Shown here: positions 7,147-37,832 of the stretch, one piece after another | Numbering within the stretch: the first letter of the stretch is position 1 | How the letters are laid out: each line of letters starts with the position of its first letter | NCBI GenBank assembly: GCA_041663005.1 | Contig: JBAZRK010000002.1 | Location: 128,740-192,739 of the forward strand | Source of the DNA: Minisyncoccota bacterium | GTDB lineage: Bacteria; Patescibacteriota; Minisyncoccia; Phycocordibacterales; UBA9973 | DNA: 64,000 nucleotides | Direction of reading: 5' to 3' | Notes under the pieces: generated by a model | Database searches by the model: none | What the model was told of the DNA's origin: nothing | The model's input: only the letters and a program-made list of their open reading frames with translations | Translations under genes and position numbers: made by a program

Positions 7147-7158
7147 TAGCTATGAGAG

Positions 7159-8761: not shown

Positions 8762-8998
8762 CTGTGGGTAAGTTAAGAAAAACATACTAACAACTTTCAT
8801 TTCAATTGTTAATAAAAAATGATAATTAAATTAAGATAATATTAAAAGATAAATATTACTAAAAATTAAAGAAGGTTGTTAGTTAAAAATAAGATTAAAA
8901 TTTTACAAAATAACCATATAAAGTAATATTGAAAAATTTTATCCACTTATAAACACAACTAGTATTACTAATAATTTAAATATATAAAATATAAACAT
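8762..8998. other. extremely AT-rich dnaA-dnaN spacer, candidate DNA unwinding element of oriC
   Basis: About 237 bp, almost entirely A/T. DnaA-box-like 9-mers occur at 8763-8771 (TGTGGGTAA, 1 mismatch, reverse orientation) and 8939-8947 (TTATCCACT, 1 mismatch). Confidence 0.5.
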
Positions 8999-10096: not shown

Positions 10097-10116
10097 GGTT
10101 CGAAGAAATTTAAATT

Positions 10117-23503: not shown

Positions 23504-24151
23504 ATGATTTACCTTTTTGCCGGCGACGACGCTAAGACTAAAATTCTCAATTACGAGAAATTCGCAAAAACTTTTCCTAAATCGGTGGATATTTTCTCTG
23601 TTAGTCGAAACAATTTCGACCCAGCGCAGATAGAGAGTTACTATTCAGGGGAAAGCCTTTTTACTAAAAAGTCCGTCGTGGTTTTCCAGGGCATTCTCGA
23701 ACGAGAAGAAGCACGGGACTTTGCTCTTCTGAAGCTCGGGTTGATGGCAAGTTCTGGCAACGATTTTGTTTTCATTGAAGGAAAACTAAATAAACCTGTT
23801 ATCGATGCCTTCAAGAAAGCTCGCGCCGAAATTAACATTTTTGATCTATCGAAAGAGAAAAAAGAGAAATATGACAATTTTCTAGTCGCTAATGCTTTCG
23901 CCAGCAGAGACAAATTTCATACTTGGTTGTATTTCCGACAAGCCGTGGACTTGGGTGTGGCTCTAGATGAGCTCGCTGGAATTCTTTTCTGGAAGGTGAA
24001 AGATATGTTGGTAAAAAAGAACTTCAGCAAATTTAAAGAAGAGGAGTTAAAAAATTTCGTCGGGAAGCTCTCATATCTTCTCCCAGAAGCCAGACAAAAA
24101 GGCCCTGAGGCCGAGTCCGCCTTCGAGCAATTTTTACTTGAGGCTTTCTAG
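23504..24151 (+). CDS. holA: putative DNA polymerase III delta subunit (HolA-like)
   Basis: 215 aa. N-terminal MIYLFAGDD resembles the delta N-terminus. Weak call. Confidence 0.4.
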   Translation: MIYLFAGDDAKTKILNYEKFAKTFPKSVDIFSVSRNNFDPAQIESYYSGESLFTKKSVVVFQGILEREEARDFALLKLGLMASSGNDFVFIEGKLNKPVIDAFKKARAEINIFDLSKEKKEKYDNFLVANAFASRDKFHTWLYFRQAVDLGVALDELAGILFWKVKDMLVKKNFSKFKEEELKNFVGKLSYLLPEARQKGPEAESAFEQFLLEAF

Positions 24152-24224
24152 TGCGCCCGCTCGGGATCGAACCGAGGACCTTATCCTTAAAAGGGATCTG
24201 CTCTACCAGCTGAGCTACGGGCGC
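24152..24224 (-). tRNA. tRNA-Lys (anticodon UUU)
   Basis: Hand-folded cloverleaf: acceptor GCGCCCG/CGGGCGC, anticodon loop CUUUUAA, T-loop GGTTCGATCC. Starts immediately after the holA stop. Confidence 0.85.
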
Positions 24225-24270: not shown

Positions 24271-24936
24271 CTATTGCTTCTTCAGCCACTCAATCATTTT
24301 CTTGTATGTAGCTGGGCCTGTTTCTCCGTCAGCAGTGGTGCCGACATCTTTCTGGAAATCAGTAACGGCGGTTTTAAGCCCGGCACCGTAGTCGTTGTCG
24401 ACTTTATTTGAAGTTTTGTTATAAAGATTTAAAAATTTCTGTATTGTACCCACCCGAGTGCCCTTCGAACCAACTTTCATAAATACATTATCAGTAACGA
24501 GCTTCTGCAGTTCGTTTATAAGAGTTTGGTTTTTGTAAGTTATTGTAGTTGGGGCAGGCTTTTCTTCTTCTGGTGCAGGCGCAGGCTCTTCCTTCACTTC
24601 TTCCTTTTCTGCTTCAAGTGTTCCGAGCTGGCTTTTTAAAGCAGCTAATTCTTTTTCAAGCTCGCTATTTTTCTCGGCAAGTTCGCGTTCGTGTTGACGC
24701 GCCGCGTGCAAGTCACCGGGTTCGAGGGTTGTAAATGCCCAGTAGCCCAAGAGGCCTAAGGCGGCAATAACGATAATTGATATCAATCCGAATTTAAAAT
24801 TCTCCACAATGTATATATTGTAGTATAATGATGCTTCTTTGTAAAATAGTGCTAGTATAAAAAAAGATAACACCAGTATGAAACAAGGAATTTTCAAACT
24901 AAAAAGCAAATGGCAGCCTGCCGGGGACCAACCCAA
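24271..24936 (-). CDS. membrane-anchored coiled-coil protein with C-terminal peptidoglycan-binding (PG_binding_1-like) domain
   Basis: TM helix ISIIVIAALGLLGYWAF. Coiled coil AEKNSELEKELAALKSQLGTLEAEKEE. C-terminal ...TADGETGPATYKKM, PG-binding-like. The annotated ATG overlaps the divergent uvrB start; an internal GTG (about 24807) may be the true start. Confidence 0.5.
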   Translation of the reverse strand: MGWSPAGCHLLFSLKIPCFILVLSFFILALFYKEASLYYNIYIVENFKFGLISIIVIAALGLLGYWAFTTLEPGDLHAARQHERELAEKNSELEKELAALKSQLGTLEAEKEEVKEEPAPAPEEEKPAPTTITYKNQTLINELQKLVTDNVFMKVGSKGTRVGTIQKFLNLYNKTSNKVDNDYGAGLKTAVTDFQKDVGTTADGETGPATYKKMIEWLKKQ

Positions 24937-27100
24937 GGCTATTTCTGAGCTTATGTCCGGGCTTAAAAAAGGGTTTCAAAAGCAGACTCTCCTGGGCGCC
25001 ACCGGCACCGGGAAAACTTTCACGATGGCGAACGTCATTGCAGAGTGGGGGAAGCCGGCGCTGGTCATTGCCCACAATAAAACTCTGGCTGCTCAGCTGG
25101 CGCAAGAATTTAAAATGTTTTTCCCTGAAGCGGCCGTTCATTACTTCGTTTCCTATTATGATTACTATCAGCCGGAGGCATATATGCCGGTCTCAGATAC
25201 CTATATCGAAAAAGACGCGCAAATAAACAAAGAGATTGACCGCTTGCGCCACGCTACTACCCAGGCACTCTTAACGAGGAGGGATGTCGTTATTGTCGCT
25301 TCCGTGTCTTGTATCTATGGTCTTGGTAGTCCGGAAGAGTACGAGAAAGTAAATTTAAAATTGGAAATTGGGCAGGCAATGGACCGCACGACCCTGATGA
25401 AACGCTTGATCGAAATACATTTCGAGCGCACCAATGCTGACCTTACCCCTGGCACATTCCGAGTTATGGGTTCGCGAGTGGAATTTATGCCTGTTTCCGA
25501 GACGATTATGTATCAACTGGAACTTGCGGGAGGCGAAATTTCAAAAATCACCAAAGTAGACCCCGTTTCCTCAAGGGTTATCAAAGAAGAAACAAATGTT
25601 TTTATTTTCCCCGCAAAACATTTCATCACAGATGAAGCGCGACTTAAGACAGCTCTGGTTAACATTAAAAAAGAGTTAGCCGCGCAACTCAAGAAGTTCG
25701 AAAAGGAAGGTAAGCTTCTCGAGGCAGAAAGAATAAAACGAAGAACCAATTACGACCTAGCAATGATTAAAGAAGTTGGCTACTGCAACGGGATAGAAAA
25801 CTATTCCCGACATCTGTCAGGAAAAAAAGAAGGCGAGCCGCCGGAAACACTTTTGAGTTACTTTCCAAAAACCACCTCACCTCGCCCCTCGAAAAACTCG
25901 GGGCACCCCTCTCCTTGGCAAGGAGAGGGGTTGGGGGGAGGGGTCCATGTTCCGGACTTCCTTACTATTATCGACGAGTCCCACGTCACCCTCCCACAAC
26001 TCGGCGGAATGTATGCAGGTGATGCTTCTAGGAAAAATACACTTGTTGAATACGGATTTCGTTTACCATCGGCAAAAGATAATCGCCCCCTTAAGTACGC
26101 GGAATTCGAAGAACGCATCGGACCCGTAATATACACCAGCGCCACTCCAAGCGAAGTCGAGAGGAAAACCAGCGAACAGATCGTGGAGCAAATAATTCGC
26201 CCGACGGGTCTAGTAGACCCGGAAGTGCTTGTTAGGCCAGTGTCCGAAAAGGAGAAGTATCTTGGGCAAATTCAAGATTTCATAACCGAAGCGGAAAAGA
26301 CTATTGCCAAAGGTTTCCGGGCGATGGCGACCACGCTTACGAAGAAGATGGCAGAAGACCTGACTGCATATTTAAAAGAAAAAGGTTTTAAGGCTGAGTA
26401 TTTACATTCTGATATAAAAACCATGGACAGAATCAAAATATTAACTCAATTCAGACGAGGAGGAAGGGGAACTCCTGCCCCGTCTGGAGTCGAAGACTCT
26501 CGTTCGGGGTTTGATGTTTTGGTGGGGGTAAACTTGTTGCGAGAAGGTTTGGACCTTCCTGAGGTGGCGCTTATTGGAATTCTCGACGCTGACAAGGAGG
26601 GCTTTCTCCGTTCAGAAACATCGCTCATTCAAATCATTGGCCGTGCGGCGCGTAACTCCGAGGGCAGGGTAATTTTATATGCGGACAGCATTACCGGCTC
26701 TATGGAGAGGGCGATAGGGGAGACCGAGCGCCGCAGAAACATTCAACTCGCATATAACAAGGAGCACGGCATAACGCCGCAAACTATTCTTAAGAAAATT
26801 CACGATATCACCGAAGAGCTAGAAAGTGAGCATGGCAAAATTGTAAATGCAGAGCTTGCCCTGGATGTGGAATTGTTTAAAAAAGTTTTTGCCAAAGAGA
26901 AAAGCAATAAAGGCAGAACCGAGTCCGATACCATTAAAAACATCGGCCTTTCTGACGAAGAACGAAACAAGGTGGTCTATGACAAGATAATTAAAATGAA
27001 AGAAAAAGAAATGAACAAAGCGGTGAAACAGCTCGACTTCGAAACCGCCGCTATATTGCGCGACGAAATTAAAGTTTTGCAAGAAAAATATTTGAGATAA
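24878..27100 (+). CDS. uvrB: excinuclease ABC subunit B
   Basis: 740 aa. Walker A GATGTGKTF. Helicase motifs. VIDESHVTLPQLGGMY. C-terminal UVR domain (FETAAILRDEIKVLQ). Two in-frame GC-rich extra segments relative to canonical UvrB. Confidence 0.95.
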   Translation: MKQGIFKLKSKWQPAGDQPKAISELMSGLKKGFQKQTLLGATGTGKTFTMANVIAEWGKPALVIAHNKTLAAQLAQEFKMFFPEAAVHYFVSYYDYYQPEAYMPVSDTYIEKDAQINKEIDRLRHATTQALLTRRDVVIVASVSCIYGLGSPEEYEKVNLKLEIGQAMDRTTLMKRLIEIHFERTNADLTPGTFRVMGSRVEFMPVSETIMYQLELAGGEISKITKVDPVSSRVIKEETNVFIFPAKHFITDEARLKTALVNIKKELAAQLKKFEKEGKLLEAERIKRRTNYDLAMIKEVGYCNGIENYSRHLSGKKEGEPPETLLSYFPKTTSPRPSKNSGHPSPWQGEGLGGGVHVPDFLTIIDESHVTLPQLGGMYAGDASRKNTLVEYGFRLPSAKDNRPLKYAEFEERIGPVIYTSATPSEVERKTSEQIVEQIIRPTGLVDPEVLVRPVSEKEKYLGQIQDFITEAEKTIAKGFRAMATTLTKKMAEDLTAYLKEKGFKAEYLHSDIKTMDRIKILTQFRRGGRGTPAPSGVEDSRSGFDVLVGVNLLREGLDLPEVALIGILDADKEGFLRSETSLIQIIGRAARNSEGRVILYADSITGSMERAIGETERRRNIQLAYNKEHGITPQTILKKIHDITEELESEHGKIVNAELALDVELFKKVFAKEKSNKGRTESDTIKNIGLSDEERNKVVYDKIIKMKEKEMNKAVKQLDFETAAILRDEIKVLQEKYLR
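25871..25954 (+). repeat. in-frame GC-rich palindromic insertion inside uvrB (encodes TTSPRPSKNSGHPSPWQGEGLGGGVHVP)
   Basis: 84 nt containing the perfect hairpin CCCCTCTCC-TTGGCAA-GGAGAGGGG and a second stem GCCCC...GGGGC. It interrupts the conserved LLxYxPK | DxLxxxDESHV junction of UvrB. Confidence 0.6.
26452..26510 (+). repeat. second in-frame GC-rich palindromic insertion inside uvrB (encodes GGRGTPAPSGVEDSRS)
   Basis: Hairpins CAGACG-AGGAG...CTCCT...-CGTCTG and GAGTC-GAA-GACTC, located between the conserved R/L and GFDVLVG motifs. Confidence 0.5.
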
Positions 27101-27104
27101 AAAA

Positions 27105-27126
27105 AGCCGGGCGTTTCCGTCCGGCT
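27105..27126. terminator. terminator hairpin downstream of uvrB (A-run before, works better for the minus strand)
   Basis: AAAAAAAGCCGGGCGTTTCCGTCCGGCT. Confidence 0.5.
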
Positions 27127-27153
27127 GGGGTCAGGCGCATATCCCCAAAGCGC

Positions 27154-27255
27154 GTAATTCTAACTTCCGACGATGGCGATGTGCCTGACCGACCAATTCT
27201 CCCACAACAATTCCTGAATCTTTTCGCGTTCCAGAATACTTAAATGCTTGTATTG
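27154..27255 (-). pseudogene. 33-aa remnant resembling the N-terminal HTH of IS30-family transposases
   Basis: Hand translation MQYKHLSILEREKIQELLWENWSVRHIAIVGS. Compare IS30 HTH ...LTLSEREEIRAGLSAKMSIRAIA. Terminated after 33 codons. Lies between uvrB and the island. Confidence 0.3.
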
Positions 27256-27449
27256 CATACCTCTATTTTACTAAAAGTGTTGCACTTACTTGTTGAACCT
27301 AGGGGCATGTGTCCGACTGGGGGCACTGGAATGATCGTTACTCAGGGATTTTATAATTGTTATGTTATTTTAGATAAAGGTCTATTGGTTTTGGGAGTTT
27401 TGCTACTAATTGTAGGGCTTATATTTTACACGTTTCAAAAAGCACGCAC

Positions 27450-28757
27450 CTAATTACGTAATATATTACGTAACTTTTCCAATAATTTTATGCTTGAAGT
27501 TAATGCACCTTCGGTTGAGGGATTTTCAAGGTAGTCGCCGCAGAAATACACATGGTTTTTGGAATCATCGGGCCGGTTAAGAAATTTTGTTACTGATTTT
27601 GTAAACCCTGGATAAATAATAGGAGTCGCAGATTCCCACGTTCTCATTTCCAGAATATCTAAATCCTCTATATCTGGGAATTCTTCTTTTAGTAAATACA
27701 AAATATTATCAGAATTAAAATTACCTGTTTTGATCAAAGATTTGTAAGTATTTGCACGCAAAGAAGCAATGAACGTTACTCTACCCGAGGCGTCCTTTTT
27801 TGATCCCACCTTACCCAATGCCGTAAAGTTTGATTTCTCGGCGGGCAGGAATTCTATGACCTTAAATCTAGGAAATAAATCGGTTTTACCCTCACACAAT
27901 ATTTGAACCGTGCTGGCATATCTTATACTTGAGAAAAATGTTTTTTCCTCCGGCGATGGGGTTTTTAGGATGTCGAGAACATAAACTCCAGGTATCGCAA
28001 TTATTGCATTTTTTGCCTCATGCATTTTTATTTGCTTGTTGTTTATTGCAGTGATAAAAACACCATCGCGTGTTTGTTTTACCGACGTTACTTTTGTGTT
28101 TAATTCGACTGGAACTTCCGCTGCCATTTTTTGACACAATTGGCCTACCCCTTCTCTAAAAGTGAAAGTCTTAATCTTTACCAATTTTAACAACACAGAG
28201 TAAAAGGCGAGTCGAGAGAAATCTTTTGTTGGATAAAAAAGAACATTTTGATTAAAAAGCTCTACGACATGGTCATACCCTTCATGCCCAGCAAAATCTC
28301 GAAAATCATCGCGGATGCTTTTGTCGTCCAACTGTAAAGCGTCTTCAAGTTTGTAAAAATCTATTTTTCTATACTGAATCAAACGTACCAGCGTGGCAAA
28401 ACAAAGTTGCAGCTTGGCTTTAAAGGATATACCGTTGTAGAGAAATGCGCCCGCAAATCTTTTTTGACCATCAAAAGGGTAAAGTTTGCCGTTTTTAACT
28501 ATAGCTGCTTGCTTTAGATTTATAGGCACGAGTTCCACCCCTAATTCCTTTGCAAGGGGTAACATATACTTATATAAATTTGCTATGAATTTAGCCCCGA
28601 AATCTACCGGCTGGCCGTTTACAAAATTAGTAGACATCCTACCGCCAAAATAGGATTCCTGTTCTAAAACCAGCACCTTTTTACCTCGCTGTTTAAGCCT
28701 GTAAGCTGTGTGGAGACCGGCTATGCCAGAACCTATGATAATATAATCAAATTGCAT
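27450..28757 (-). CDS. FAD-dependent oxidoreductase of the amine oxidase / phytoene desaturase (CrtI) / protoporphyrinogen oxidase superfamily
   Basis: 435 aa. N-terminal dinucleotide fold IIIGSGIAGLHTAYRL...VLVLE...GGR. C-terminal FCGDY...EGALTSS FAD motif. Confidence 0.6.
   Translation of the reverse strand: MQFDYIIIGSGIAGLHTAYRLKQRGKKVLVLEQESYFGGRMSTNFVNGQPVDFGAKFIANLYKYMLPLAKELGVELVPINLKQAAIVKNGKLYPFDGQKRFAGAFLYNGISFKAKLQLCFATLVRLIQYRKIDFYKLEDALQLDDKSIRDDFRDFAGHEGYDHVVELFNQNVLFYPTKDFSRLAFYSVLLKLVKIKTFTFREGVGQLCQKMAAEVPVELNTKVTSVKQTRDGVFITAINNKQIKMHEAKNAIIAIPGVYVLDILKTPSPEEKTFFSSIRYASTVQILCEGKTDLFPRFKVIEFLPAEKSNFTALGKVGSKKDASGRVTFIASLRANTYKSLIKTGNFNSDNILYLLKEEFPDIEDLDILEMRTWESATPIIYPGFTKSVTKFLNRPDDSKNHVYFCGDYLENPSTEGALTSSIKLLEKLRNILRN
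27454..27473. repeat. perfect palindrome TTACGTAATATATTACGTAA (left copy of an island-flanking 18-bp repeat)
   Basis: Shares the identical 18-nt core TACGTAATATATTACGTA with the palindrome at 31605-31626. Overlaps the stop codon of the CrtI-like gene. Confidence 0.7.
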
Positions 28758-28850
28758 TTTACTCTATTATTTTTCTCTCGACCCTTTTAATGCCGGGCAG
28801 AAAAAGGAATCGGATAATTTTTTGCAGAATTTTTTCCATGACAATATCTA

Positions 28851-29645
28851 TTATGGCAATTTGTGCTCGATACTAAATTCGTATAAAACAACTACACAGG
28901 GGGCACTCAAGATCACTATGAATAAAAATTCTTCCAAAGGAAATGGATAAGGAACGTAACCCATAAACCCTAAATATTTTCCTGGAAAGTCCCAGTGGTG
29001 CAAGAAGTTGCCTGTCATTTCAAACAATAAAAGCAAAAATGCCATGAAGGATGCAGGAATAAGCATACTTTTAGACAGGTATTTGTATTTCCACAAAGCA
29101 ACACCTAGAAACATTATAGCAAACAGACACATGTAGAAATAAGGGTATGCTAAATTTAGGCTAATAACCATTAACAATAAAAGTATGGCCAGAGATAAAA
29201 TTGGTAAGATAAAAAATCTTAACCTTAAACGCACGGGCGATTTGGGTAAAGCTAGCGTGTGATAAAGCATCACTGTTACATAACAATAAAGAAGAACCCA
29301 TATTATATCGTCTACAGGCAGAGATCCGCTCAGTAGTCGGAAAGGGAATATCGTGTTTGGTATATACCAAACTTTGTATATAAAGGCATAATAATCTACA
29401 GGCAAAAGAATTGGCACCATCGCAAATGCAGAAAACAAAAGAGAGGAGGATATGTTTTCAGGGCGACGGAATGATAGTATGAATGCCAAAGGAACAAAAA
29501 ATAAAAGGGTTGATATGAGGTAATTAGCACTCAAAAAAATCGAAACAGTTGCGGCTCCAATAGGGAATAGCAGGAAAACAAAATTCATACTTTCTATATG
29601 ATACAATAACGTAGTGACTAAGCAAAGCTTGGATCTTAAAGACAA
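28851..29645 (-). CDS. lycopene cyclase domain-containing membrane protein (CrtYcd-like)
   Basis: Polytopic membrane protein. The hPLEE motif (YPFPLEEFLF) is typical of lycopene-cyclase-domain proteins. True start is probably the internal ATG at 29588 (MNFVFLLFPIG). Confidence 0.5.
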   Translation of the reverse strand: MSLRSKLCLVTTLLYHIESMNFVFLLFPIGAATVSIFLSANYLISTLLFFVPLAFILSFRRPENISSSLLFSAFAMVPILLPVDYYAFIYKVWYIPNTIFPFRLLSGSLPVDDIIWVLLYCYVTVMLYHTLALPKSPVRLRLRFFILPILSLAILLLLMVISLNLAYPYFYMCLFAIMFLGVALWKYKYLSKSMLIPASFMAFLLLLFEMTGNFLHHWDFPGKYLGFMGYVPYPFPLEEFLFIVILSAPCVVVLYEFSIEHKLP

Positions 29646-29646
29646 A

Positions 29647-30312
29647 ATGATTTATGCCCACAAGGGCTATTTTGACAGGGAGTCGGTAAAACATTACCGC
29701 GAAAATTCAGTAGAGGTTTGTAAAATTGCCAGTACGAAAGATTATATAAAAGCCATAGAAGTTGACGTGCGAAAATCCAGCGACGGCATTTTATATTGCT
29801 ACCATGGTAATTTTTGGCAGTATATTTTCTTACTAAAAATTCCACAAACCTTCACTACGCTCCAGAAAAAATACCATGTCGCAACTCTCAAAGATATTTT
29901 AAGCGTTATTTCTTCAGACAAAATTATCGCGCTCGATATCAAAGATACCAAAATAACTAAGGCAGATATTTTGAATGCTTTTGCGGGCAAAAAATTCAAG
30001 GAAGTAGTCATAATTAATAAATCTACTGCTTATCTGGAGCGTTTTGATAATATGTCCAAAGAGTTTGTAAAAATGTTGAACGTGAATGTGTTTCCCGCTT
30101 TTTGCAATCTGGAAAAACTGAAAGGCGATAACTTTAAGTATTTCGAAATCCTTTTTCCTTTCCTGGCAACCAAAAAGATTTTACAAAAAATAAAAGATAG
30201 CGGCCTGGAATGGACAGGTTTTCCTGCAATTATTTTCACGAGCGAGGAAAGTTATCGAGAATGCGTAGAGAAATATAAAATTCCCTACCTACCCGCCCAC
30301 TTATTTTATTGA
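29647..30312 (+). CDS. glycerophosphodiester phosphodiesterase-family (GDPD/PI-PLC-like) protein
   Basis: AHKG...ENS...IEVDVRKSSDGILYCYHG parallels the GDPD H-R-G / E-N-T / IE-D-V...DG...HD signature. Start set at the internal ATG at 29647 (MIYAHKG) rather than the longer ORF from 29614. Confidence 0.45.
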   Translation: MIYAHKGYFDRESVKHYRENSVEVCKIASTKDYIKAIEVDVRKSSDGILYCYHGNFWQYIFLLKIPQTFTTLQKKYHVATLKDILSVISSDKIIALDIKDTKITKADILNAFAGKKFKEVVIINKSTAYLERFDNMSKEFVKMLNVNVFPAFCNLEKLKGDNFKYFEILFPFLATKKILQKIKDSGLEWTGFPAIIFTSEESYRECVEKYKIPYLPAHLFY

Positions 30313-30315
30313 CCG

Positions 30316-31134
30316 ATGAAGTTAAAAATTTTTACAGCGAACATAGCATTTGGGCTCAAGGGAATGGACAATCTTTTAGTAAATACTATTGGGCATTTGG
30401 TATTTCACGGCTGGTCCATGATAGCTTTATTTTTAAATCCTACCTCTTTTAAAAATCGCAAAAAAACGCTGAACCCCCGAAGAATCTCGTACATAAAAAA
30501 GCACAGTAGCCTTGCGTCGATACTGGAAGTAATAAAAAAAGAAAAACCGGACATTTTGATGTTAAATGAGTTAATAAAGCAAATCCAATGTAGTGAAATC
30601 GAAAAAGAGCTGTCTGCTTTAGGGTATTCTTCAATTTATTTCGGTTATTCGGCACACCATGATGACGCCACGGTTTCTTCTCTCGTTGCATCTAAAATAA
30701 AAGGAGAAAAATTGGCGATAGAATTTACCGAAGGGGCTCATGCGGGTGGCGGGGGAGGTATTGTCGGGCTAAGGCTTGTGCAGTCAAACATAACCGTGGT
30801 AGGAGTACATATGTGTACGCCTAAATTTCCATGGTTATATGACGCGCAAATTGCAGATATAGTAAAATTTTTAGAGACCGAAAAATTACTTGGGCGGGAA
30901 GTTATAATTGCAGGGGATTGGAATGCGTCAACACTTTTTCTTAAAAAATACCCCGCATTTTCAAAACTGAATCTTATAAATAGCGAAGGGGATATGCTTA
31001 CTTGTCCTACGTTTTTACCAAAGCTCGAGCCCCTAGACCATATCTTTGTCCCGCAGAATTTTAAAACTATAAATTCCAAAACGATCGCTTTCGGTTCGGA
31101 CCATTTGGCTGTAAGTGTTGAAGTGGGAAAATAA
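30316..31134 (+). CDS. endonuclease/exonuclease/phosphatase (EEP) family protein
   Basis: IIAGDWNAS and GSDHLAVSVEV motifs typical of EEP/sphingomyelinase-like phosphoesterases. Confidence 0.6.
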   Translation: MKLKIFTANIAFGLKGMDNLLVNTIGHLVFHGWSMIALFLNPTSFKNRKKTLNPRRISYIKKHSSLASILEVIKKEKPDILMLNELIKQIQCSEIEKELSALGYSSIYFGYSAHHDDATVSSLVASKIKGEKLAIEFTEGAHAGGGGGIVGLRLVQSNITVVGVHMCTPKFPWLYDAQIADIVKFLETEKLLGREVIIAGDWNASTLFLKKYPAFSKLNLINSEGDMLTCPTFLPKLEPLDHIFVPQNFKTINSKTIAFGSDHLAVSVEVGK

Positions 31135-31613
31135 TATAATGGAAGACTTACCAATAAAAATAAACAACGACAAATATCAAGTTTTTCTTTTTACTAGCAG
31201 ATGTCCACTGCCCATCCCCTTCGCTTCCCACCTGTGGTTTGTCATAAATAAAAAAGGAGCGCTATATAGATATGAAGTTACTAATCATAAAAATCCGAAA
31301 GGCGTAAAACATTGGGGGCACATAGCTTTAAATTTCCTACCCTTTTTTTTCTGGAATGAGTGTAATTCCTTACTATAAAAAAATTTGTTTCAAGGCGAAA
31401 CTTTTAAGTCAAATCGAAGGCGACGAAAAAAGCATAGCCAGGTTAATGGCGGATTTTATAGAAAATTCTCCGAATACGTATGCCCACCGCGATGTTTATC
31501 ATTTTGTTGGACCCAACAGCAATACTTACGCAGCTTGGGTTCTGCGCAATTTTCCGGAGTTTAAAGCCGCATTGCCCAGGAATGCTTTCGGAAAAAATTA
31601 CAAATGTACGTAA
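31115..31613 (+). CDS. two overlapping small ORFs (87 and 85 aa) of unknown function, possibly one gene split by a frameshift
   Basis: ORFs 31115-31378 and 31356-31613 overlap by 23 nt in different frames. No motif recognized. Confidence 0.25.
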
Positions 31614-31626
31614 TATATTACGTACA
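31605..31626. repeat. perfect 22-nt palindrome TGTACGTAATATATTACGTACA (right copy of the island-flanking repeat)
   Basis: Identical 18-nt core to the 27454-27473 palindrome. Overlaps the stop of the preceding ORF and lies about 45 nt upstream of uvrA. Confidence 0.7.
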
Positions 31627-31713
31627 TTGAAAGAGGACTCAAATGTGATAGAATAGCCCTATACACCCCCTATGGATGAGGCGGGGTGGATTTGTGTTAT
31701 ACGGCACAATTTT

Positions 31714-34380
31714 ATGAAAACCGATAAAAATATAGACCCTCCTTCGCGTAAAGCTACGGACGGGCAAAGCAAAATAATAGTTAAGGGTGCTAGGACGCAC
31801 AACTTAAAGAATATAAGCGTAGAAATGCCTCGCAATAAAATGGTGGTAATTACCGGTGTTTCGGGGTCTGGAAAGTCATCTCTTGCCTTCGACACTATCT
31901 TCGCCGAAGGGCAGAGGAGGTATGTGGAATCCCTCTCTTCTTATGCGCGGCAATTTTTGAACCAAATGCCCAAGCCGGATGTGGACGAAATTTCCGGCCT
32001 GTCGCCCGCGATCTCCATCGACCAAAAATCACGCTCCAACAATCCGCGTTCTACGGTGGCAACCATCACGGAGATTTATGACTACCTCCGCGTCATGTAC
32101 GCCCGCATCGGGCACCCACATTGTCCGCAATGTGGAGAAGAGATTAAAAAACTTTCCAACGAAGAAATTTTAAATTTTGTTATTGGGAAAGTTTTTTCGA
32201 GGTCGGACCTCAAGAATTCCCGAGGTCCGACCTCTAGGCGGAAGGTGATGGGCGTGGAGTGGGACGAGACCGAGATAAGTATTTTCTCTCCGGTGGTGAG
32301 GGGCAGAAAGGGGGAGTACTACCAGCTCCTGTACGATTTACTTGGAAAAGGTTTCGCCGAAATACGCCTCGACGGAGCTGCGAAGAAGCTCCGTGAACAG
32401 ATTACGCTTTCTAAAAACAAGGCCCACAACATCGACATCCTGATAGACCGTTTCGCTGTTCACGAATTTACCGACGACAAAGACGCGAGCCGAATGCGCT
32501 TGGCAGAAGCCATTGAGCGCGCCTTGATAGAGTCAGATAGTTTGGTAACTATTAAAATTGGCGAGGAGGAATTTATTATGTCAGCGAAGTTTGCCTGTAA
32601 GAACGATGGATTTTCTTTCCCCGAAGTTGAGCCCAGGCTTTTCTCCTTCAATTCTCCATACGGAGCCTGCCCGGTATGTAACGGCTTAGGGTCCAAATAT
32701 TTTATGGGTGACGAACCTTGTGACGCTTGTCATGGCGCGCGATTGCGGCCCGAAGCGCTGAATGTTTTCTTGAGGTCGGACCTCAAGAATTCCCGAGGCC
32801 CGACCTCGAAGAGCGGACTAAACATACTTGATATTTCATCACTTTCTATTAAGGACGCCCACGACTTCTTCAAGAATTTGAAACTCTCGGAGCAAGAGAA
32901 AGAAATTTCTGTACCAGTAGTGCGCGAGATAGAAGCGCGGTTACAGTTTATGCTCGATGTGGGCCTCGACTACCTCCAGCTTTCAAGAAAAGCCAATACT
33001 CTCTCGGGCGGAGAAGCACAACGAATAAGGCTTGCTTCCCAGCTGGGCTCACGTCTTGTCGGAGCGTTGTATGTGCTAGATGAACCCACGATTGGTCTCC
33101 ACCAGCGCGACAATGACCGACTGATAAAAACTTTGCAAAATTTGCGCGATCTAGGGAATACCATACTTATAGTGGAACACGACGAGGACACTATTTACGC
33201 CTCGGACTACATTGTCGACATAGGGCCAAAGGCCGGAGTTCACGGGGGCGAAGTAATTGTGTCCGGATATTTAGAAGACTTACTTACCGCAAAGAAGAAT
33301 CCTAATAATTCTCGTACCCTCGCCTACCTCCGCGAGGAAACTCGGATTGAAATTCCTAAAAAGCGCCGCGAGGCTAAAGGGGTACTGCGAATTGCCGGAG
33401 GGAAAATATTTAATATAAAAAATATGAACGTGGAGGTGCCGCTCGGTGTTATGACCTCGATTACCGGCGTGTCTGGGTCTGGTAAAAGTTCTCTTATGTA
33501 CGAGATTCTCTATAAGAACTTGCAGGCGAGGTACGAAAGGAAATATCGCACAGCGAAAATATTTAATGCCACATCTTTTTCGGGTACAGAATACCTCTCC
33601 CGCGCGATATTAATTGATCAGTCGCCCATAGGCAGAACTCCGCGTTCAAACATTGCCACTTATACGGGCTCCTTTACCCACATCCGTGACCTTTTCGCAC
33701 TAACAGAAGAGGCGCGCTTGCGGGGCTGGAAGGCTAACAGATTTTCTTTCAACGTGAAGGGCGGACGCTGCGAAGCTTGTGAAGGCAACGGTGAAATAGC
33801 CGTGGAAATGCATTTCTTGCCGACAGTGTATGTTACCTGTGATGTGTGTAATGGTAAACGTTTCGACAAAGAAACCCTCACCGTAAAATACAAAAAGAAA
33901 AATATTCACGAAGTACTGCGAATGACCGTGGAAGAGGGATTGAAATTTTTCAAAGATATTCCCGCGATTTCCGACAGGTTGCAAACTCTTATGGATGTAG
34001 GGCTTGGATATTTGGAATTGGGACAATCAGCTACAACTCTTTCGGGAGGGGAAGCGCAACGAGTAAAAATTTCGAGCGAACTGTACCGTCCACACTTAGA
34101 GAAAACAATTTATCTTTTGGATGAGCCTACCGTGGGGCTGCATTACGATGACGTCCACAAGCTGCTCGAGGTATTAAGCAAGCTCGTGTCCAAAGGTAAC
34201 ACCGTGGTCCTAATTGAGCACAACCTTGATATTATAAAAAGCTCGGACTACATTATAGACATAGGTCCTGAGGGGGGAGTAAACGGCGGGAACATAGTTG
34301 CTAAAGGTACTCCGGAAGAAGTGGCCAATAATACTAAAAGTTATACCGGTAAATATTTAAAAAAGGTTCTACGAAAATAA
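31714..34380 (+). CDS. uvrA: excinuclease ABC subunit A
   Basis: Two ABC ATPase modules (GVSGSGKSSLA; GVSGSGKSSLMY; LSGGE signatures). Zn-finger Cys clusters. Start set at MKTDKN (31714) rather than the upstream extended ORF. Confidence 0.95.
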   Translation: MKTDKNIDPPSRKATDGQSKIIVKGARTHNLKNISVEMPRNKMVVITGVSGSGKSSLAFDTIFAEGQRRYVESLSSYARQFLNQMPKPDVDEISGLSPAISIDQKSRSNNPRSTVATITEIYDYLRVMYARIGHPHCPQCGEEIKKLSNEEILNFVIGKVFSRSDLKNSRGPTSRRKVMGVEWDETEISIFSPVVRGRKGEYYQLLYDLLGKGFAEIRLDGAAKKLREQITLSKNKAHNIDILIDRFAVHEFTDDKDASRMRLAEAIERALIESDSLVTIKIGEEEFIMSAKFACKNDGFSFPEVEPRLFSFNSPYGACPVCNGLGSKYFMGDEPCDACHGARLRPEALNVFLRSDLKNSRGPTSKSGLNILDISSLSIKDAHDFFKNLKLSEQEKEISVPVVREIEARLQFMLDVGLDYLQLSRKANTLSGGEAQRIRLASQLGSRLVGALYVLDEPTIGLHQRDNDRLIKTLQNLRDLGNTILIVEHDEDTIYASDYIVDIGPKAGVHGGEVIVSGYLEDLLTAKKNPNNSRTLAYLREETRIEIPKKRREAKGVLRIAGGKIFNIKNMNVEVPLGVMTSITGVSGSGKSSLMYEILYKNLQARYERKYRTAKIFNATSFSGTEYLSRAILIDQSPIGRTPRSNIATYTGSFTHIRDLFALTEEARLRGWKANRFSFNVKGGRCEACEGNGEIAVEMHFLPTVYVTCDVCNGKRFDKETLTVKYKKKNIHEVLRMTVEEGLKFFKDIPAISDRLQTLMDVGLGYLELGQSATTLSGGEAQRVKISSELYRPHLEKTIYLLDEPTVGLHYDDVHKLLEVLSKLVSKGNTVVLIEHNLDIIKSSDYIIDIGPEGGVNGGNIVAKGTPEEVANNTKSYTGKYLKKVLRK
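32198..32234 (+). repeat. 36-nt palindromic element (GAGGTCGGACCTC-AAGAATTCCC-GAGGTCCGACCTC) inserted in frame in uvrA, copy 1
   Basis: Inverted 13-nt arms around an EcoRI-containing spacer. Translated as (S)RSDLKNSRGPTS. Confidence 0.7.
32773..32808 (+). repeat. 36-nt palindromic element, copy 2 (1 mismatch), inserted in frame in uvrA
   Basis: GAGGTCGGACCTCAAGAATTCCCGAGGCCCGACCTC. Same reading frame and same peptide (LRSDLKNSRGPTS) as copy 1, about 575 nt downstream. Confidence 0.7.
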
Positions 34381-35721: not shown

Positions 35722-36279
35722 ATGACCAAGCAAGAGGAGCTGGAACACTTAAAGATCGAAATTGAGCAAAATAAAGCTCTGCCGCTCGATACTAATCTCG
35801 TTTTCGGGGAAGGCAATCCGGACTGCGAAATACTTTTTATCGGAGAGGCTCCTGGTATGAATGAGGACCGCGATAGGCGCCCATTCGTGGGCCGTGCTGG
35901 GCAATTATTACGCAAAAATATTCGCGACCTTGGTTGGAAGGAAGAGGATGTATATATCACTAACATAGTTAAACGCCGCCCCCCGGAAAATCGCGATCCT
36001 TTACCTGAAGAAATTGAAAGTTATAAGCCCTACTTGGCGAAGCAAATAGAAATACTCCAGCCTAAAATAATTATTCCCCTCGGGCGATTTTCTATGAACT
36101 ACTTCTTGCCCCTGGCGAAAATCACTCGCGACCAGGGCAAACTTTTCAAGACAGGGAAGTATTTCATCTTGCCGATGCTTCACCCCGCCGCGGCGTTGCG
36201 GGGCAACACGAATATGGCAATGTTCGTGGAAACGTTTAAAAAATTACCTCGAGCACTCGAGAAAGTCAAAAGTTTATGA
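35722..36279 (+). CDS. udg: uracil-DNA glycosylase, family 4
   Basis: GEAPGMNEDRDRRPFVGRAGQLL family-4 UDG motif. Start at the ATG at 35722, preceded by TATAAT. Confidence 0.8.
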   Translation: MTKQEELEHLKIEIEQNKALPLDTNLVFGEGNPDCEILFIGEAPGMNEDRDRRPFVGRAGQLLRKNIRDLGWKEEDVYITNIVKRRPPENRDPLPEEIESYKPYLAKQIEILQPKIIIPLGRFSMNYFLPLAKITRDQGKLFKTGKYFILPMLHPAAALRGNTNMAMFVETFKKLPRALEKVKSL

Positions 36280-36329
36280 AACTCATGAGTTTTACATTTT
36301 AGCTTAACAGTTGTATTATTTAAGCGATT

Positions 36330-36491
36330 ATGACACCAGAGGAACAAGCCAAAAAAATCGAGGAAATATATAATGACGCCATGCAAAAGCTGGAAAAGCT
36401 TGGTGGTGAGCGCAAAGAAATTATTCGTAGCTATATCAAAGAACTCGAAGTTCAAAAAGTTAATGCGATTCGAGCATCGTTGGGATTATAA
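36330..36491 (+). CDS. small helical hypothetical protein (about 53 aa)
   Basis: Hand translation MTPEEQAKKIEEIYNDAMQKLEKLGGERKEIIRSYIKELEVQKVNAIRASLGL. Immediately upstream of the 359-aa unknown protein. Confidence 0.3.
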   Translation: MTPEEQAKKIEEIYNDAMQKLEKLGGERKEIIRSYIKELEVQKVNAIRASLGL

Positions 36492-36509
36492 GATAACTGA
36501 GATATTTTT

Positions 36510-37589: not shown

Positions 37590-37640
37590 GAATTTCCCCA
37601 AGTAAGACAGAGCATTAATTGCTGAGGTAGCTCATGAGTT

Positions 37641-37832
37641 ATGGCAAGACCTACAAATTCAATTAGAAAAATATCACGGGTGGGGAGGGCGAAGTCTTTT
37701 GCGGTGGTAATACCCGTGGAGGTAATGCGCTCGCTCGGCTGGCGCGAGAGGCAGAGAGTCGTGGTTAAAAGGGTAGCCCGCGGGATTTCTATCACGGATG
37801 CAAAAACTAAAAAGAAGAAAACACTCGCTTAG
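37641..37832 (+). CDS. AbrB/MazE (SpoVT-AbrB) family DNA-binding protein, orphan
   Basis: 63 aa. The SFAVVIPVEVMRSLGWRERQRVVVKRV pattern is typical of the swapped-hairpin AbrB/MazE fold. No toxin partner adjacent. Confidence 0.45.
   Translation: MARPTNSIRKISRVGRAKSFAVVIPVEVMRSLGWRERQRVVVKRVARGISITDAKTKKKKTLA

What the first reader, a model, noticed from the sequence alone, without database searches (positions are those of the whole stretch)
27103..31626. 4.1-kb island between uvrB and uvrA flanked by an identical 18-bp palindrome, carrying carotenoid-type and phospholipid-head-group enzymes plus an IS30-like remnant
uvrB and uvrA are normally adjacent or close. Here they are separated by a block bounded by TTACGTAATATATTACGTAA (27454-27473) and TGTACGTAATATATTACGTACA (31605-31626), which share the identical 18-nt core TACGTAATATATTACGTA and each overlap a stop codon. 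The block encodes a CrtI/amine-oxidase-type flavoprotein, a lycopene-cyclase-domain membrane protein (PLEE motif), a GDPD-like phosphodiesterase, an EEP-family phosphoesterase and a possibly frameshifted small gene. Just outside the left boundary is a 33-aa remnant of an IS30-type HTH (27154-27255). Carotenoid-like desaturase and cyclase genes are unexpected in an organism with this otherwise minimal gene set. The identical palindromes could be duplicated target sites of an insertion event or shared operator/terminator sites.
Basis: partly seen in the sequence, partly recalled or inferred. Interest (0 to 1): 0.65.

Follow-up and report, generated by a model that had tools for sequence, protein, structure and literature searches.

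The report
Accessory gene insert bounded by operator-like palindromes
A 4.6-kb block of accessory genes sits between the DNA-repair genes uvrB and uvrA of an uncultured Paceibacterota bacterium, and the identical palindromes at its edges look like binding sites for a small AbrB/MazE-type regulator, not insertion scars; the block is an ordinary variable-region insert and does not encode a carotenoid pathway.

Summary
TACGTAATATATTACGTA occurs only at 27455-27472 and 31607-31624 in 64 kb. The copies are the window's two longest perfect palindromes, 20 and 26 bp.

The block is a real lineage-specific insert. Of 70 relatives with uvrB-uvrA-uvrC, 34 have under 200 bp between uvrB and uvrA. Thirty carry unrelated cargo there, so the site is a hot spot. 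Block GC is 0.376 against 0.441. Only the EEP gene is shared, with one relative.

The palindromes are not target-site duplications. No relative has the motif, and only P2 lies near an insert junction. Each copy extends its own symmetry.

In at least 18 other Patescibacteria-like contigs the same 18-mer lies 2-45 bp upstream of a 56-62 aa MazE/AbrB-fold gene. It forms TTACGTAA boxes at 12-bp spacing, which is an operator layout. In the window, both copies abut the two best outward promoter-like sites, one of them uvrA's. The matching regulator was not found in the 74 kb I could read.

The carotenoid reading is unsupported. The flavoprotein resembles amine oxidases and protoporphyrinogen oxidases, and no crtB or crtE is present. 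The EEP enzyme leans weakly towards exonuclease III.

Verdict: an ordinary island with an apparently undescribed operator motif.

The parts
24878..27100 (+). uvrB, the left core gene flanking the insert
   Evidence: NF003673 931.7 bits. Relatives are 69-81% identical.
27104..27135 (-). G+C-rich hairpin followed by U7 on the minus strand. It looks like an intrinsic terminator for the leftward remnant gene.
   Evidence: Fold energy -13.4 kcal/mol on the minus strand with a UUUUUUU tail. On the plus strand it is -17.8 kcal/mol with no U tract.
27160..27258 (-). 32-aa remnant of an IS30-type HTH (HTH_38) gene
   Evidence: PF13936 E=4e-6, 26.9 bits against a cut-off of 27. ORF. Called with HTH_38 (weak) in L001.
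27409..27438 (-). Outward promoter-like site TTGAAA-18-TACAAT, 15 nt from P1, pointing at the HTH remnant
   Evidence: 10 of 12 consensus matches, joint best in the 5-kb scan.
27454..27473 (.). P1: 20-bp perfect palindrome TTACGTAATATATTACGTAA, made of two TTACGTAA boxes 12 bp apart. It encodes the last 7 codons of the flavoprotein.
   Evidence: Hairpin energy -5.8 or -8.2 kcal/mol depending on strand.
27450..28757 (-). FAD flavoprotein of the amine-oxidase / protoporphyrinogen-oxidase fold; substrate unknown
   Evidence: PF01593 112.9 bits. Homologues at 50-63% identity come only from Paceibacterota-like contigs. AF2 model pLDDT 90.5. Foldseek top hits are 6-hydroxynicotine oxidase, MAO and PPOX, TM 0.72-0.80.
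28851..29588 (-). Polytopic membrane protein with two lycopene-cyclase-type domains (LPVDD and FPLEE motifs)
   Evidence: PF18916 17 bits and TIGR03462 24 bits, both below cut-off. 6 of 14 family members hit PF18916, best 2e-9. P-x-EE and the FW that follows are invariant or nearly so.
29647..30312 (+). GDPD-like (PLC-like) phosphodiesterase, first gene of the rightward operon
   Evidence: PF03009 22.6 bits against a cut-off of 23.6. PDB 1o1z glycerophosphodiester phosphodiesterase E=1e-4.
30316..31134 (+). EEP-superfamily Mg-dependent phosphoesterase or nuclease. This is the only block gene shared with a relative at this site.
   Evidence: PF03372 32.5 bits. L010 homologue 55% identical between uvrB and uvrA. 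Small family: 142 representatives in 1.84 billion. Catalytic N/E/D/N/D/H columns invariant. Profile nearest to ExoIII at 1e-6 and sphingomyelinase at 2e-6.
31139..31613 (+). DUF3750 gene split by a frameshift in a T-run near 31343-31351
   Evidence: PF12570 55.3 bits on the 3' half. Both halves align to one intact 162-aa gene in L005.
31603..31628 (.). P2: 26-bp perfect palindrome AATGTACGTAATATATTACGTACATT. It contains the DUF3750 stop codon and overlaps the -35 of the uvrA promoter-like site by 2 nt.
   Evidence: Hairpin energy -11.7 kcal/mol, z -4.9.
31627..31654 (+). uvrA promoter-like site TTGAAA-16-TG-n-TAGAAT. The extended -10 is ancestral and the -35 lies in inserted DNA.
   Evidence: 10 of 12 matches with TG. 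The -10 aligns with TGCTATAAT of relatives, and homology to relatives resumes at about 31642-31646.
31655..31713 (+). Conserved uvrA leader ATACACCCCCTAnGA..GGCGGGGTG, ancestral and not part of the insert
   Evidence: Present in 52 of 70 relatives by the stem-pair pattern and in 54 by the 5' half alone. 82% of cells paired but little covariation. No Rfam match.
31714..34380 (+). uvrA, the right core gene. The ORF opens at 31672, but the conserved start is MKTDKNI at 31714.
   Evidence: NF001503 1234.6 bits. Alignment of upstream regions.
37641..37832 (+). The only AbrB/MazE-fold gene seen in the accessible DNA (WCT29_02655). It belongs to a paralogous subfamily with its own CTCATGAG-type palindrome upstream.
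   Evidence: tblastn 45-49% to the palindrome-linked family. PF04014 22.7 bits. Homologues and their upstream motifs.

Best explanation
The DNA from about 27101 to 31645 is a lineage-specific, low-GC accessory insert in the uvrB-uvrA spacer. That spacer is a recombination hot spot in this Paceibacterota / Nomurabacteria clade.

The insert is a mosaic. It holds a decayed HTH_38 gene, a leftward pair (cyclase-domain membrane protein, then flavoprotein) and a rightward operon (GDPD-like, EEP, frameshifted DUF3750).

The two palindromes are not insertion scars. They are two copies of a conserved Patescibacteria cis-element made of TTACGTAA boxes in 12-bp register. Elsewhere this element lies between an extended -10 and the start codon of a small MazE/AbrB-fold DNA-binding protein, which is the layout of that protein's operator.

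In this window each copy sits at the outer edge of the cargo. Each is at the 3' end of one of the two divergent cargo operons, and each lies directly upstream of an outward-facing promoter-like site. The left site points at the HTH remnant and the right one at uvrA.

Inferred mechanism: a dimeric or tetrameric AbrB-type protein binds each site. This places the outward promoters, including uvrA's newly supplied -35 region, under its control. It may also block read-through from the cargo operons.

Shown: the insert, the hot spot, the motif-regulator association in other genomes, and the geometry in this window.

Inferred: binding in this organism, its regulatory effect, and the existence of the cognate regulator in this genome.
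For: Insert and hot spot:
- 70 relatives keep uvrB-uvrA-uvrC. The uvrB-uvrA gap is under 200 bp in 34, 270-365 bp in 6 and 559-7201 bp in 30, and the cargo differs between genomes.
- Block GC is 0.376 against 0.441, within the lowest 1.7% of 4.57-kb windows. Block genes have GC3 of 0.35-0.39 against a mean of 0.454.

Motif as operator:
- The exact 18-mer was found in more than 118 metagenome stretches, and the scan was truncated.
- 18 of 122 instances lie 2-45 bp upstream of a 56-62 aa PF04014 protein (35.8 bits). These proteins fall into 6 clusters at 80% identity and have different neighbours.
- The boxes lie between an extended -10 (TGGTATAAT) and the ATG, and they form arrays of 2-3 at a 12-bp period.
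- A second paralogue in L140, not found through the 18-mer, also has three TACGTAA boxes with different spacers.
- A sister subfamily, which includes the window's own gene, carries a different palindrome (CTCATGAG / TGAGTTAACTCA) at the same position. Motif and protein therefore co-vary.

Geometry in the window:
- The two best promoter-like hits in 5 kb are the two that abut the palindromes, and both face outward.
- P2 overlaps the -35 of the uvrA promoter-like site, whose -10 is ancestral.
- Neither the AbrB-type gene nor the motif is present in the 10-kb flanks of 80 relatives. This fits regulator-type genes and sites being gained together.
Against: - The cognate MPRRK-type regulator was not found in the 74 kb of this genome that could be read. 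The one AbrB-fold gene present belongs to the subfamily with a different upstream motif.
- In the other genomes the boxes lie downstream of the -10. Here they lie upstream of the -35, so the geometry differs.
- P1 lies inside the flavoprotein's coding tail, at the convergence of two reading frames. That is an odd place for an operator, and its downstream 'gene' is a 32-aa remnant.
- Promoter-like sites are not enriched in the region: 10 found against 15.9 expected.
- The metagenome search required the exact 18-mer, so the apparent invariance of the motif is partly built in.
- No binding data exist.
Confidence: 0.5

Rival explanations
1. The palindromes are recombination sites or breakpoints that delimit a mobile cassette. 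The cargo from 27474 to 31602 was inserted into, or between copies of, a palindromic site. Candidates are a site-specific recombinase (Xer/pdif-module-like), an IS30-type transposase that prefers palindromic targets, or breakage at hairpin-prone DNA.
For: - Both cargo operons end exactly in a palindrome, and both terminal ORFs read into it for their stop codon.
- The pair is unique among 17 filled gaps examined.
- An HTH_38 (IS30-type) remnant lies about 200 bp from P1. From memory, not tested here, IS30 prefers palindromic hot spots.
- The palindrome-plus-AbrB modules elsewhere sit at borders of variable defence cargo (R-M, RadC, TA genes).
- A second pair of like palindromes (CTCATGAG) brackets another low-GC3 gene at 36279-37638.
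Against: - No integrase, Xer or intact transposase is in the 74 kb seen.
- The site is a 26-bp or 20-bp perfect palindrome, not an 11-6-11 dif-like site.
- In 18 other loci the motif occurs as one cluster per AbrB gene, not as pairs flanking cargo.
- The EEP gene occupies the same position in L010 without any palindrome, so the cargo was not acquired as one palindrome-bounded unit.
- P1 is about 350 bp from the left junction.
Confidence: 0.2
2. The palindromes act at the RNA level, as 3' hairpins of the two divergent cargo operons. They would be weak terminators or stabilisers against 3' exonucleases, in the way REP-like elements work.
For: - Each lies at the 3' end of an operon.
- P2 folds at -11.7 kcal/mol (z -4.9, 0 of 200 shuffles as stable).
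- P2 is flagged as terminator-like, but on the minus strand.
Against: - The stems are A+T-rich with at most 3 G-C pairs.
- P1 folds at only -5.8 or -8.2 kcal/mol, z -2.2 or -1.0.
- No U tract follows either hairpin on the sense strand of its operon.
- This genome has a conventional G+C-rich terminator 330 bp away.
- In other genomes the same sequence is in 5' regions in front of genes, in multi-box arrays that make poor single hairpins.
- Only 2 copies occur in 64 kb, so it is not a generic terminator or REP.
Confidence: 0.15
3. The palindromes are an 18-bp target-site duplication made when a transposable element carrying the whole block inserted between uvrB and uvrA.
For: - There are two identical 18-nt copies, one near each end of the block.
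- A transposase-type HTH remnant lies nearby.
Against: - No copy or relic of the sequence exists at the empty sites or anywhere in 1.37 Mb of 80 relatives, although the uvrA promoter and leader are well conserved there.
- The copies are not at the insert junctions. P1 is about 350 bp inside the left one.
- Each copy extends its palindromy with its own flanking bases (T..A for P1, AATG..CATT for P2). That is about a 1 in 1000 coincidence under duplication.
- No terminal inverted repeats lie inside the copies.
- 18 bp is far longer than the 2-3 bp duplications of IS30 (established knowledge).
- The same 18-mer recurs in unrelated genomes in a fixed regulatory position.
Confidence: 0.03

Closest known systems
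Autoregulatory operators of AbrB/MazE/SpoVT-fold (swapped-hairpin) DNA-binding proteins, such as MazE at the mazEF promoter, AbrB-type VapB antitoxins and MraZ box arrays
   Same: In other genomes a small PF04014 protein gene is preceded, between promoter and start codon, by repeated palindromic boxes at about one helical turn. Paralogous subfamilies carry different boxes.
   Different: No toxin gene follows. The genes downstream are R-M, RadC or unrelated genes. I found no paper describing a TTACGTAA box at 12-bp period. In this window the boxes are not next to any AbrB gene, and they sit upstream of -35 elements at the edges of an insert.
Controller (C) proteins and C-boxes of restriction-modification systems
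   Same: In other Patescibacteria-like contigs the palindrome plus a small regulator gene lies directly upstream of type I, II and III methylase genes or DpnI.
   Different: C proteins are helix-turn-helix proteins, whereas this regulator has the AbrB/MazE fold. The window has no R-M genes at the site.
Genomic islets at chromosomal integration hot spots between conserved core genes
   Same: There is variable, compositionally deviant cargo between two syntenic core genes. Many relatives have empty sites, and different genomes carry different cargo.
   Different: There is no integrase and no adjacent tRNA (the nearest is tRNA-Lys at 24151-24224). No attL/attR-type direct repeats occur in the other filled sites. 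The content is a mosaic, not a single element.
IS30-family insertion sequences
   Same: An N-terminal HTH_38 remnant is present, with its own promoter-like site and terminator. It lies close to a palindrome; from memory, IS30 prefers such targets.
   Different: Only 32 codons are left. There is no DDE domain, no inverted repeats, and no 2-3-bp duplication.
Carotenoid clusters with CrtI and CrtYc/CrtYd-type lycopene cyclase (C40/C50, bacterioruberin type)
   Same: An amine-oxidase-superfamily flavoprotein lies next to a membrane protein with two lycopene-cyclase-type domains and the PxEE motif.
   Different: No phytoene synthase, GGPP synthase or UbiA elongase is present. The flavoprotein fails the CrtI family model and is structurally nearer amine oxidases and PPOX. 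The two genes are not consistently linked in other genomes.
REP / REPIN elements and pdif (Xer) modules
   Same: Short palindromes lie at gene 3' ends and flank a cargo module.
   Different: There are two copies in 64 kb, not dozens. The sequence is conserved across genera in a promoter position. It lacks the 11-6-11 Xer architecture. No RAYT or Xer gene was seen.

Membership tests
Target-site duplication of a transposable element | One copy of the duplicated sequence is present at the empty site in genomes lacking the element | tested here: not met
   No dyad with up to 2 mismatches lies near uvrA, and none lies in a comparable context anywhere in 1.37 Mb of 80 relatives. The upstream regions of uvrA were aligned.
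Target-site duplication of a transposable element | The repeats lie exactly at both junctions of inserted DNA, just outside terminal inverted repeats | tested here: not met
   P1 is about 350 bp inside the left junction and P2 about 18 nt inside the right one. There is no similarity beyond the palindrome on either side.
Operator of an AbrB/MazE/SpoVT-fold regulator | The motif recurs in the promoter region of the regulator gene across genomes (autoregulatory layout) | tested here: met
   18 contigs in 6 protein clusters have the motif 2-45 bp upstream of the ATG and downstream of an extended -10. The protein scores 35.8 bits on PF04014.
Operator of an AbrB/MazE/SpoVT-fold regulator | The motif varies with the regulator subfamily | tested here: met
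   The MPRRK/MPTRK subfamily has TTACGTAA boxes. The MARPxNS subfamily has CTCATGAG / TGAGTTAACTCA.
Operator of an AbrB/MazE/SpoVT-fold regulator | The cognate regulator is encoded in the same genome | tested here: inconclusive
   Only 74 kb of the genome was readable. Only the other subfamily was found, at 37641-37832.
Operator of an AbrB/MazE/SpoVT-fold regulator | The protein binds the site and changes transcription | not testable with these tools
   This needs gel-shift, footprint or reporter assays. Only adjacency to promoter-like sites is shown.
Intrinsic terminator | A G+C-rich stem followed by a U tract on the sense strand of the upstream gene | tested here: not met
   There are at most 3 G-C pairs and no sense-strand U tract. 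P2 is flagged only on the minus strand and P1 is not flagged.
Genomic island / hot-spot insert | Absent from related genomes that keep the flanking synteny | tested here: met
   34 of 70 relatives have a gap under 200 bp. None carries the flavoprotein, GDPD-like or DUF3750 genes at the site.
Genomic island / hot-spot insert | Composition deviates from the host | tested here: met
   GC is 0.376 against 0.441. GC3 is 0.35-0.39 against 0.454 (sd 0.08).
Genomic island / hot-spot insert | An integrase or other mobility gene, or an adjacent tRNA | tested here: not met
   Only a 32-aa HTH_38 remnant is present. There is no adjacent tRNA, no integrase in the window, and no plasmid or phage DNA match.
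Carotenoid biosynthesis cluster (CrtI + lycopene cyclase) | The flavoprotein reaches the phytoene-desaturase family threshold | tested here: not met
   TIGR02734 gives 37 bits against a cut-off of 238, matching residues 6-57 only. PDB profile and Foldseek top hits are amine oxidases and PPOX.
Carotenoid biosynthesis cluster (CrtI + lycopene cyclase) | Phytoene synthase and prenyl-diphosphate synthase are present in the cluster or nearby | tested here: not met
   None lies in the window plus 10 kb. The rest of the genome was not seen.
Lycopene-cyclase-domain superfamily (PF18916 / TIGR03462) | Domain model score above cut-off and the hPhEE motif | tested here: inconclusive
   This protein scores 17 and 24 bits, both below cut-off. 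However, 6 of 14 homologues match PF18916 (best 2e-9), and P-x-EE with the FW that follows is invariant or nearly so. This supports membership of the superfamily, not cyclase activity.
IS30-family transposase | An N-terminal HTH_38 plus a DDE (rve) catalytic domain, flanked by inverted repeats | tested here: not met
   Only the HTH_38 is present, at 26.9 bits. The ORF stops after 32 codons. No inverted repeats were found.
EEP (endonuclease/exonuclease/phosphatase) superfamily | Pfam threshold reached and the catalytic N, E, D, N, D, H residues present | tested here: met
   PF03372 gives 32.5 bits against a cut-off of 24.5. N9, E85, D201, N203, D241 and S261-D262-H263 are invariant. The substrate class is unresolved: ExoIII 1e-6, sphingomyelinase 2e-6.
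GDPD family | Pfam threshold reached | tested here: inconclusive
   PF03009 gives 22.6 bits against a cut-off of 23.6, matching the N-terminal 40 residues only. PDB 1o1z gives E=1e-4 over residues 13-130.

The most novel reading that the evidence does not exclude
The TTACGTAA palindromes would be more than operators. They would be the boundary or recombination sites of a cassette system in Patescibacteria, in which AbrB-type 'controller' modules and their palindromes mark and mobilise accessory and defence gene cassettes into hot spots such as uvrB-uvrA.

The window would then show a cassette caught between two such sites. A second, analogous pair (CTCATGAG) would bracket the gene at 36510-37589.
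Probability: 0.1. Interest if true: 0.75.

Novelty: new member of a known kind. Interest (0 to 1): 0.4.

Why it matters
Gene regulation in Candidate Phyla Radiation bacteria is almost unexplored, because none of these lineages is easy to grow. A palindromic box recurs upstream of one small AbrB/MazE-fold protein family across lineages that share under 80% identity, and a sister subfamily carries a different box. Together these give a concrete regulator-operator pair that can be tested in vitro. They also hint that AbrB-fold proteins may do in these organisms what helix-turn-helix C proteins do for R-M systems elsewhere.

For this locus, the finding suggests that horizontally acquired DNA replaced the upstream half of the uvrA promoter and brought a foreign control site with it.

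The island itself is ordinary. It should not be cited as evidence for carotenoid synthesis in a reduced-genome bacterium.

Tried and rejected
- **Chance:** rejected. 0 of 100 shuffles gave 2 or more matches.
- **Assembly artefact:** rejected. The block is identical in two retrieved assemblies.
- **Ancestral uvrA operator (for example an SOS box):** rejected. The motif is absent upstream of uvrA in all 70 relatives, while the -10 and leader are conserved.
- **Longer shared flanks, or inverted repeats of an IS:** none found beyond the palindrome. A shared AGCCCTA 7-mer is within chance expectation.
- **Flanking repeats as a general feature of inserts at this hot spot:** none longer than 14 bp in 16 other filled gaps.
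- **Conserved operon for the flavoprotein and cyclase-domain protein:** contexts differ. The only trace is a 73-residue cyclase-like fragment beside the flavoprotein, with DUF3750 3 kb away, in L005.
- **Phage or plasmid origin:** no DNA match. One unrelated viral contig carries the 18-mer.
- **Defence-system membership:** no meaningful PADLOC hit.
- **Known RNA family at the palindromes or in the uvrA leader:** none.
- **Literature on TTACGTAA operators, AbrB in Patescibacteria, or lycopene cyclase in CPR:** nothing relevant.
- **Xer/dif-like site:** considered because the arm TTACGTACATT loosely resembles XerD arms (from memory). Rejected because of the 26-bp perfect symmetry, the multi-box arrays, the promoter position and the absence of a recombinase.
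- **Extending the view of the genome:** one look-up on the right side found nothing. The 10 kb gained on the left holds no site and no AbrB gene.
- **RNAalifold on the uvrA leader:** returned no structure. A hand-specified stem is 82% paired with little covariation.

Full report
**Source and observation**

The window comes from a 226-kb metagenome contig of a Candidatus Paceibacterota (CPR / Patescibacteria) bacterium. The block is identical in a second assembly.

TACGTAATATATTACGTA occurs only at 27455-27472 and 31607-31624. No other site appears with up to 3 mismatches, and 0 of 100 shuffles gave two matches. P1 (27454-27473, 20 bp) and P2 (31603-31628, 26 bp) are the two longest perfect palindromes in 64 kb.

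P1 is the coding sequence of the flavoprotein's last seven residues, LRNILRN. This tail is 2-4 residues longer than in homologues. P2 holds the stop codon of DUF3750. Two of the three reading frames of the motif contain TAA, so any ORF that runs into it ends there. The 'overlap with a stop codon' follows from the sequence itself.

**Gene content**

- uvrB and uvrA are certain.
- Leftward pair: a membrane protein with two lycopene-cyclase-type domains. Its own scores are below cut-off, but 6 of 14 homologues hit PF18916, and the P-x-EE residues with the following FW are invariant or nearly so. It is followed by an Amino_oxidase flavoprotein.
- Rightward operon: a GDPD-like protein (just below the Pfam cut-off; PDB 1o1z E=1e-4), an EEP enzyme, and DUF3750 split by a frameshift in a T-run. 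An intact homologue is in L005.
- Left of P1: a 32-aa HTH_38 remnant, with a promoter-like site upstream and a minus-strand terminator downstream.

**Is it an island?**

Yes, but it is an ordinary one at a hot spot. Eighty relatives (UvrB 69-81% identical) were fetched. Seventy show uvrB, uvrA and mostly uvrC in the same order.

| uvrB-uvrA gap | Relatives |
|---|---|
| under 200 bp | 34 |
| 270-365 bp | 6 |
| 559-7201 bp | 30 |

The cargo in the filled gaps is unrelated between genomes. It includes a true Lycopene_cyc protein in L032 and one recurring ~275-aa family in five relatives.

The three closest genomes all differ. L009 has a 106-aa membrane protein. L010 has only an EEP homologue, 55% identical. 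The window has five genes. The block is therefore a mosaic, not one imported unit.

Its GC is 0.376 against 0.441, and its genes' GC3 is 0.35-0.39 against 0.454. No integrase, adjacent tRNA, plasmid match or phage match was found.

**Junctions**

Homology to relatives resumes at about 31642-31646. That point lies inside the spacer of the uvrA promoter-like site. The extended -10 (TGaTAGAAT) and a conserved leader are ancestral, while the -35 and P2 belong to the insert. P2 is thus about 18 nt from the right junction. P1 is about 350 bp from the left junction.

**Not a target-site duplication**

- The sequence is absent from all empty sites and from 1.37 Mb of relatives.
- The copies do not sit symmetrically at the two junctions.
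- There is no similarity beyond the palindrome.
- Each copy completes its own symmetry with different flanking bases: T..A for P1 and AATG..CATT for P2. That is unlikely for a duplicated target and expected for elements selected for symmetry.
- Other filled gaps have no bounding repeats.

**What the palindrome is elsewhere**

About 25 of these are one repeated gut-associated sequence. Others are scattered singletons.

Eighteen instances, on low-GC contigs, lie 2-45 bp upstream of a 56-62 aa protein of the form MPRRK..IRKITKVGG.SYAVTLPIEIIR. This protein is a MazE/AbrB/SpoVT-domain protein (PF04014, 35.8 bits). The proteins fall into six clusters at 80% identity and have different neighbours.

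The motif lies just downstream of an extended -10. It is built from TTACGTAA boxes at a 12-bp period, two to three in a row, and the spacer can vary. A second paralogue in L140, not found through the 18-mer, shows the same layout.

Genes immediately downstream include a type III Mod, an EcoRI-like methylase, HsdM, DpnI and RadC twice.

This is the layout of an autoregulated repressor and its operator, often at the head of defence cassettes. I found no paper describing it.

**The window's own AbrB-fold gene**

An uncalled ORF at 37641-37832 (WCT29_02655) is 45-49% identical to that family. Its close homologues carry a different palindrome at the same upstream position: TGAGTTAACTCA or ACTCATGAGT.

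In the window, CTCATGAG occurs twice. One copy is immediately upstream of this gene. The other is in the 14-bp palindrome at 36279-36292.

This co-variation of protein subfamily and box strengthens the regulator-operator reading in general. It also means that this particular protein is probably not the binder of P1 and P2. No MPRRK-type gene lies in the 74 kb I could read.

**Geometry in the window**

The two best promoter-like matches in 5 kb (10 of 12 each) are the two that abut the palindromes. Both face outward:
- TTGAAA-18-TACAAT on the minus strand, 15 nt from P1.
- TTGAAA-16-TG-n-TAGAAT on the plus strand, overlapping P2 by 2 nt and leading into uvrA.

The hairpins are weak: -5.8 or -8.2 kcal/mol for P1 and -11.7 kcal/mol for P2. 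Neither has a sense-strand U tract, and the genome has a conventional G+C-rich terminator nearby. A terminator role is therefore secondary at best.

**Interpretation**

The most likely reading (about 0.5) is that P1 and P2 are binding sites for an AbrB-type regulator that arrived with acquired DNA. They now sit against outward promoters, including uvrA's, and may also block read-through from the cargo operons.

A recombination-site or cassette-boundary role (about 0.2) is not excluded. The cargo ends exactly in the palindromes, an IS30-type remnant is adjacent, and a second palindrome pair brackets another low-GC3 gene. However, no recombinase is seen, other loci do not show paired sites, and L010 has EEP at this site without palindromes.

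**Functions of the cargo**

The carotenoid idea is not supported.
- The flavoprotein matches CrtI-type models only through its FAD-binding N-terminus, at 37 bits against a cut-off of 238.
- Its high-confidence model (pLDDT 90.5) superposes best on 6-hydroxynicotine oxidase, monoamine oxidases, NicA2, putrescine oxidase and protoporphyrinogen / coproporphyrinogen oxidases. TM scores are 0.72-0.80 at 15-20% identity, and no CrtI is in the top 50.
- No crtB, crtE or prenyltransferase is nearby in this genome.
- Homologues of both proteins (50-63% identical for the flavoprotein, 27-34% for the cyclase-domain protein) occur in other Paceibacterota-like contigs in unrelated contexts.

The EEP enzyme belongs to a small family, with 142 representatives among 1.84 billion proteins. 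It has an intact catalytic set. Its profile is marginally nearer exodeoxyribonuclease III than sphingomyelinase. It lies inside a repair cluster (polA, uvrB, uvrA, uvrC, UDG, Fpg, RuvA/B), so a nuclease role is at least as plausible as a lipid role.

**Verdict**

The target-site duplication and carotenoid readings are rejected.

The palindromes are best read as copies of an apparently undescribed operator motif of AbrB/MazE-fold regulators in Patescibacteria. Their function at this locus is inferred, not shown.

Noticed in passing
window 31655-31713, and upstream of uvrA in L010-L088: A conserved leader lies between the extended -10 and the uvrA start: (TTAATATTGAT)ATACACCCCCTAnGAnnnnGGCGGGGTGt..TGTTAT. 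The stem-pair pattern (ACCCCC ... GGGG) is present in 52 of 70 relatives and the 5' half alone in 54. It can form an ACACCCC/GGGGTGT stem (82% of cells paired) but shows little covariation. There is no Rfam match. It implies that the true uvrA start is ATG 31714.
   Followed up: partly
window 36279-36292 and 37631-37638, flanking 36510-37589; gene 37641-37832: The only two CTCATGAG sites in 64 kb bracket a low-GC3 (0.319) 359-aa gene with no Pfam family. One is the 14-bp palindrome AAACTCATGAGTTT. The other lies directly upstream of an uncalled AbrB/MazE-fold gene. This is a second case of like palindromes flanking atypical DNA.
   Followed up: partly
L102, L103, L124, L141, L161, L168, L206 and other metagenome loci: The module 'TTACGTAA boxes plus a 60-aa AbrB/MazE-fold gene' lies directly upstream of a type III Mod, an EcoRI-like methylase, HsdM, DpnI and RadC. 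It is often next to AbiE or HigBA-type toxin-antitoxin genes. It may be an AbrB-fold analogue of R-M controller proteins in CPR bacteria.
   Followed up: partly
L212-L215, about 3380-4660 in L212: A small cassette is inserted inside the ribosomal-protein operon between the L5 and S14 genes. It holds DUF5678, a retropepsin-like aspartyl protease, an AbrB/MazE-fold gene and two further small genes. The DUF5678 plus protease pair also lies beside the palindrome-linked AbrB gene in L140 and L199.
   Followed up: no
window 45463-47267: Two adjacent minus-strand genes have GC of 0.60-0.65 and GC3 of 0.69-0.77, in a genome averaging 0.44. One has a BACON domain and the other has no family. They may be recent foreign DNA or a mis-join.
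   Followed up: partly
L009 12880-13040 and L019 about 4640-4780: In two relatives uvrA seems to have a duplicated, truncated 5' end (MKSDKNIDKIIVKG...). This is followed by a G+C-rich insert of about 130 bp and a new start codon. No Rfam intron match was found in L009; L019 was not scanned.
   Followed up: partly
L032 12241-15212; L020, L042, L064, L072, L083 gaps: Other cargo occupies the same uvrB-uvrA hot spot. L032 has a bona fide Lycopene_cyc protein (43 bits) plus three further genes, one of which looks like a P-loop kinase by eye. Five relatives carry a recurring ~275-aa secreted family that resembles DUF3298/PdaC by eye; it was not scanned.
   Followed up: partly
window 29355-29372: An 18-bp perfect palindrome, GTTTGGTATATACCAAAC, lies inside the cyclase-domain gene. 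The simple scan also flags it as terminator-like.
   Followed up: no
L092, L095, L096, L105 and about 20 more loci, including human-gut contigs L147 and L151: About 25 metagenome hits are one near-identical A+T-rich element. In it the same 18-mer is embedded between GTAATTAGTAGAAT repeats and (ATAT)n tracts. It is unrelated to the CPR loci and unexplained.
   Followed up: no
L115, L133, L144, L191: In four unrelated contigs (GC up to 0.68) the same 18-mer lies 1-108 bp upstream of proteins that look MarR-like by eye (not scanned). The sequence may serve as an operator for another regulator family too.
   Followed up: no
window 1-10100 and L218: A type IV secretion-like cluster (TraC-like, TraG P-loop, T4SS pilin) lies next to yidC, dnaA and dnaN. 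The window therefore spans the probable replication origin region.
   Followed up: no
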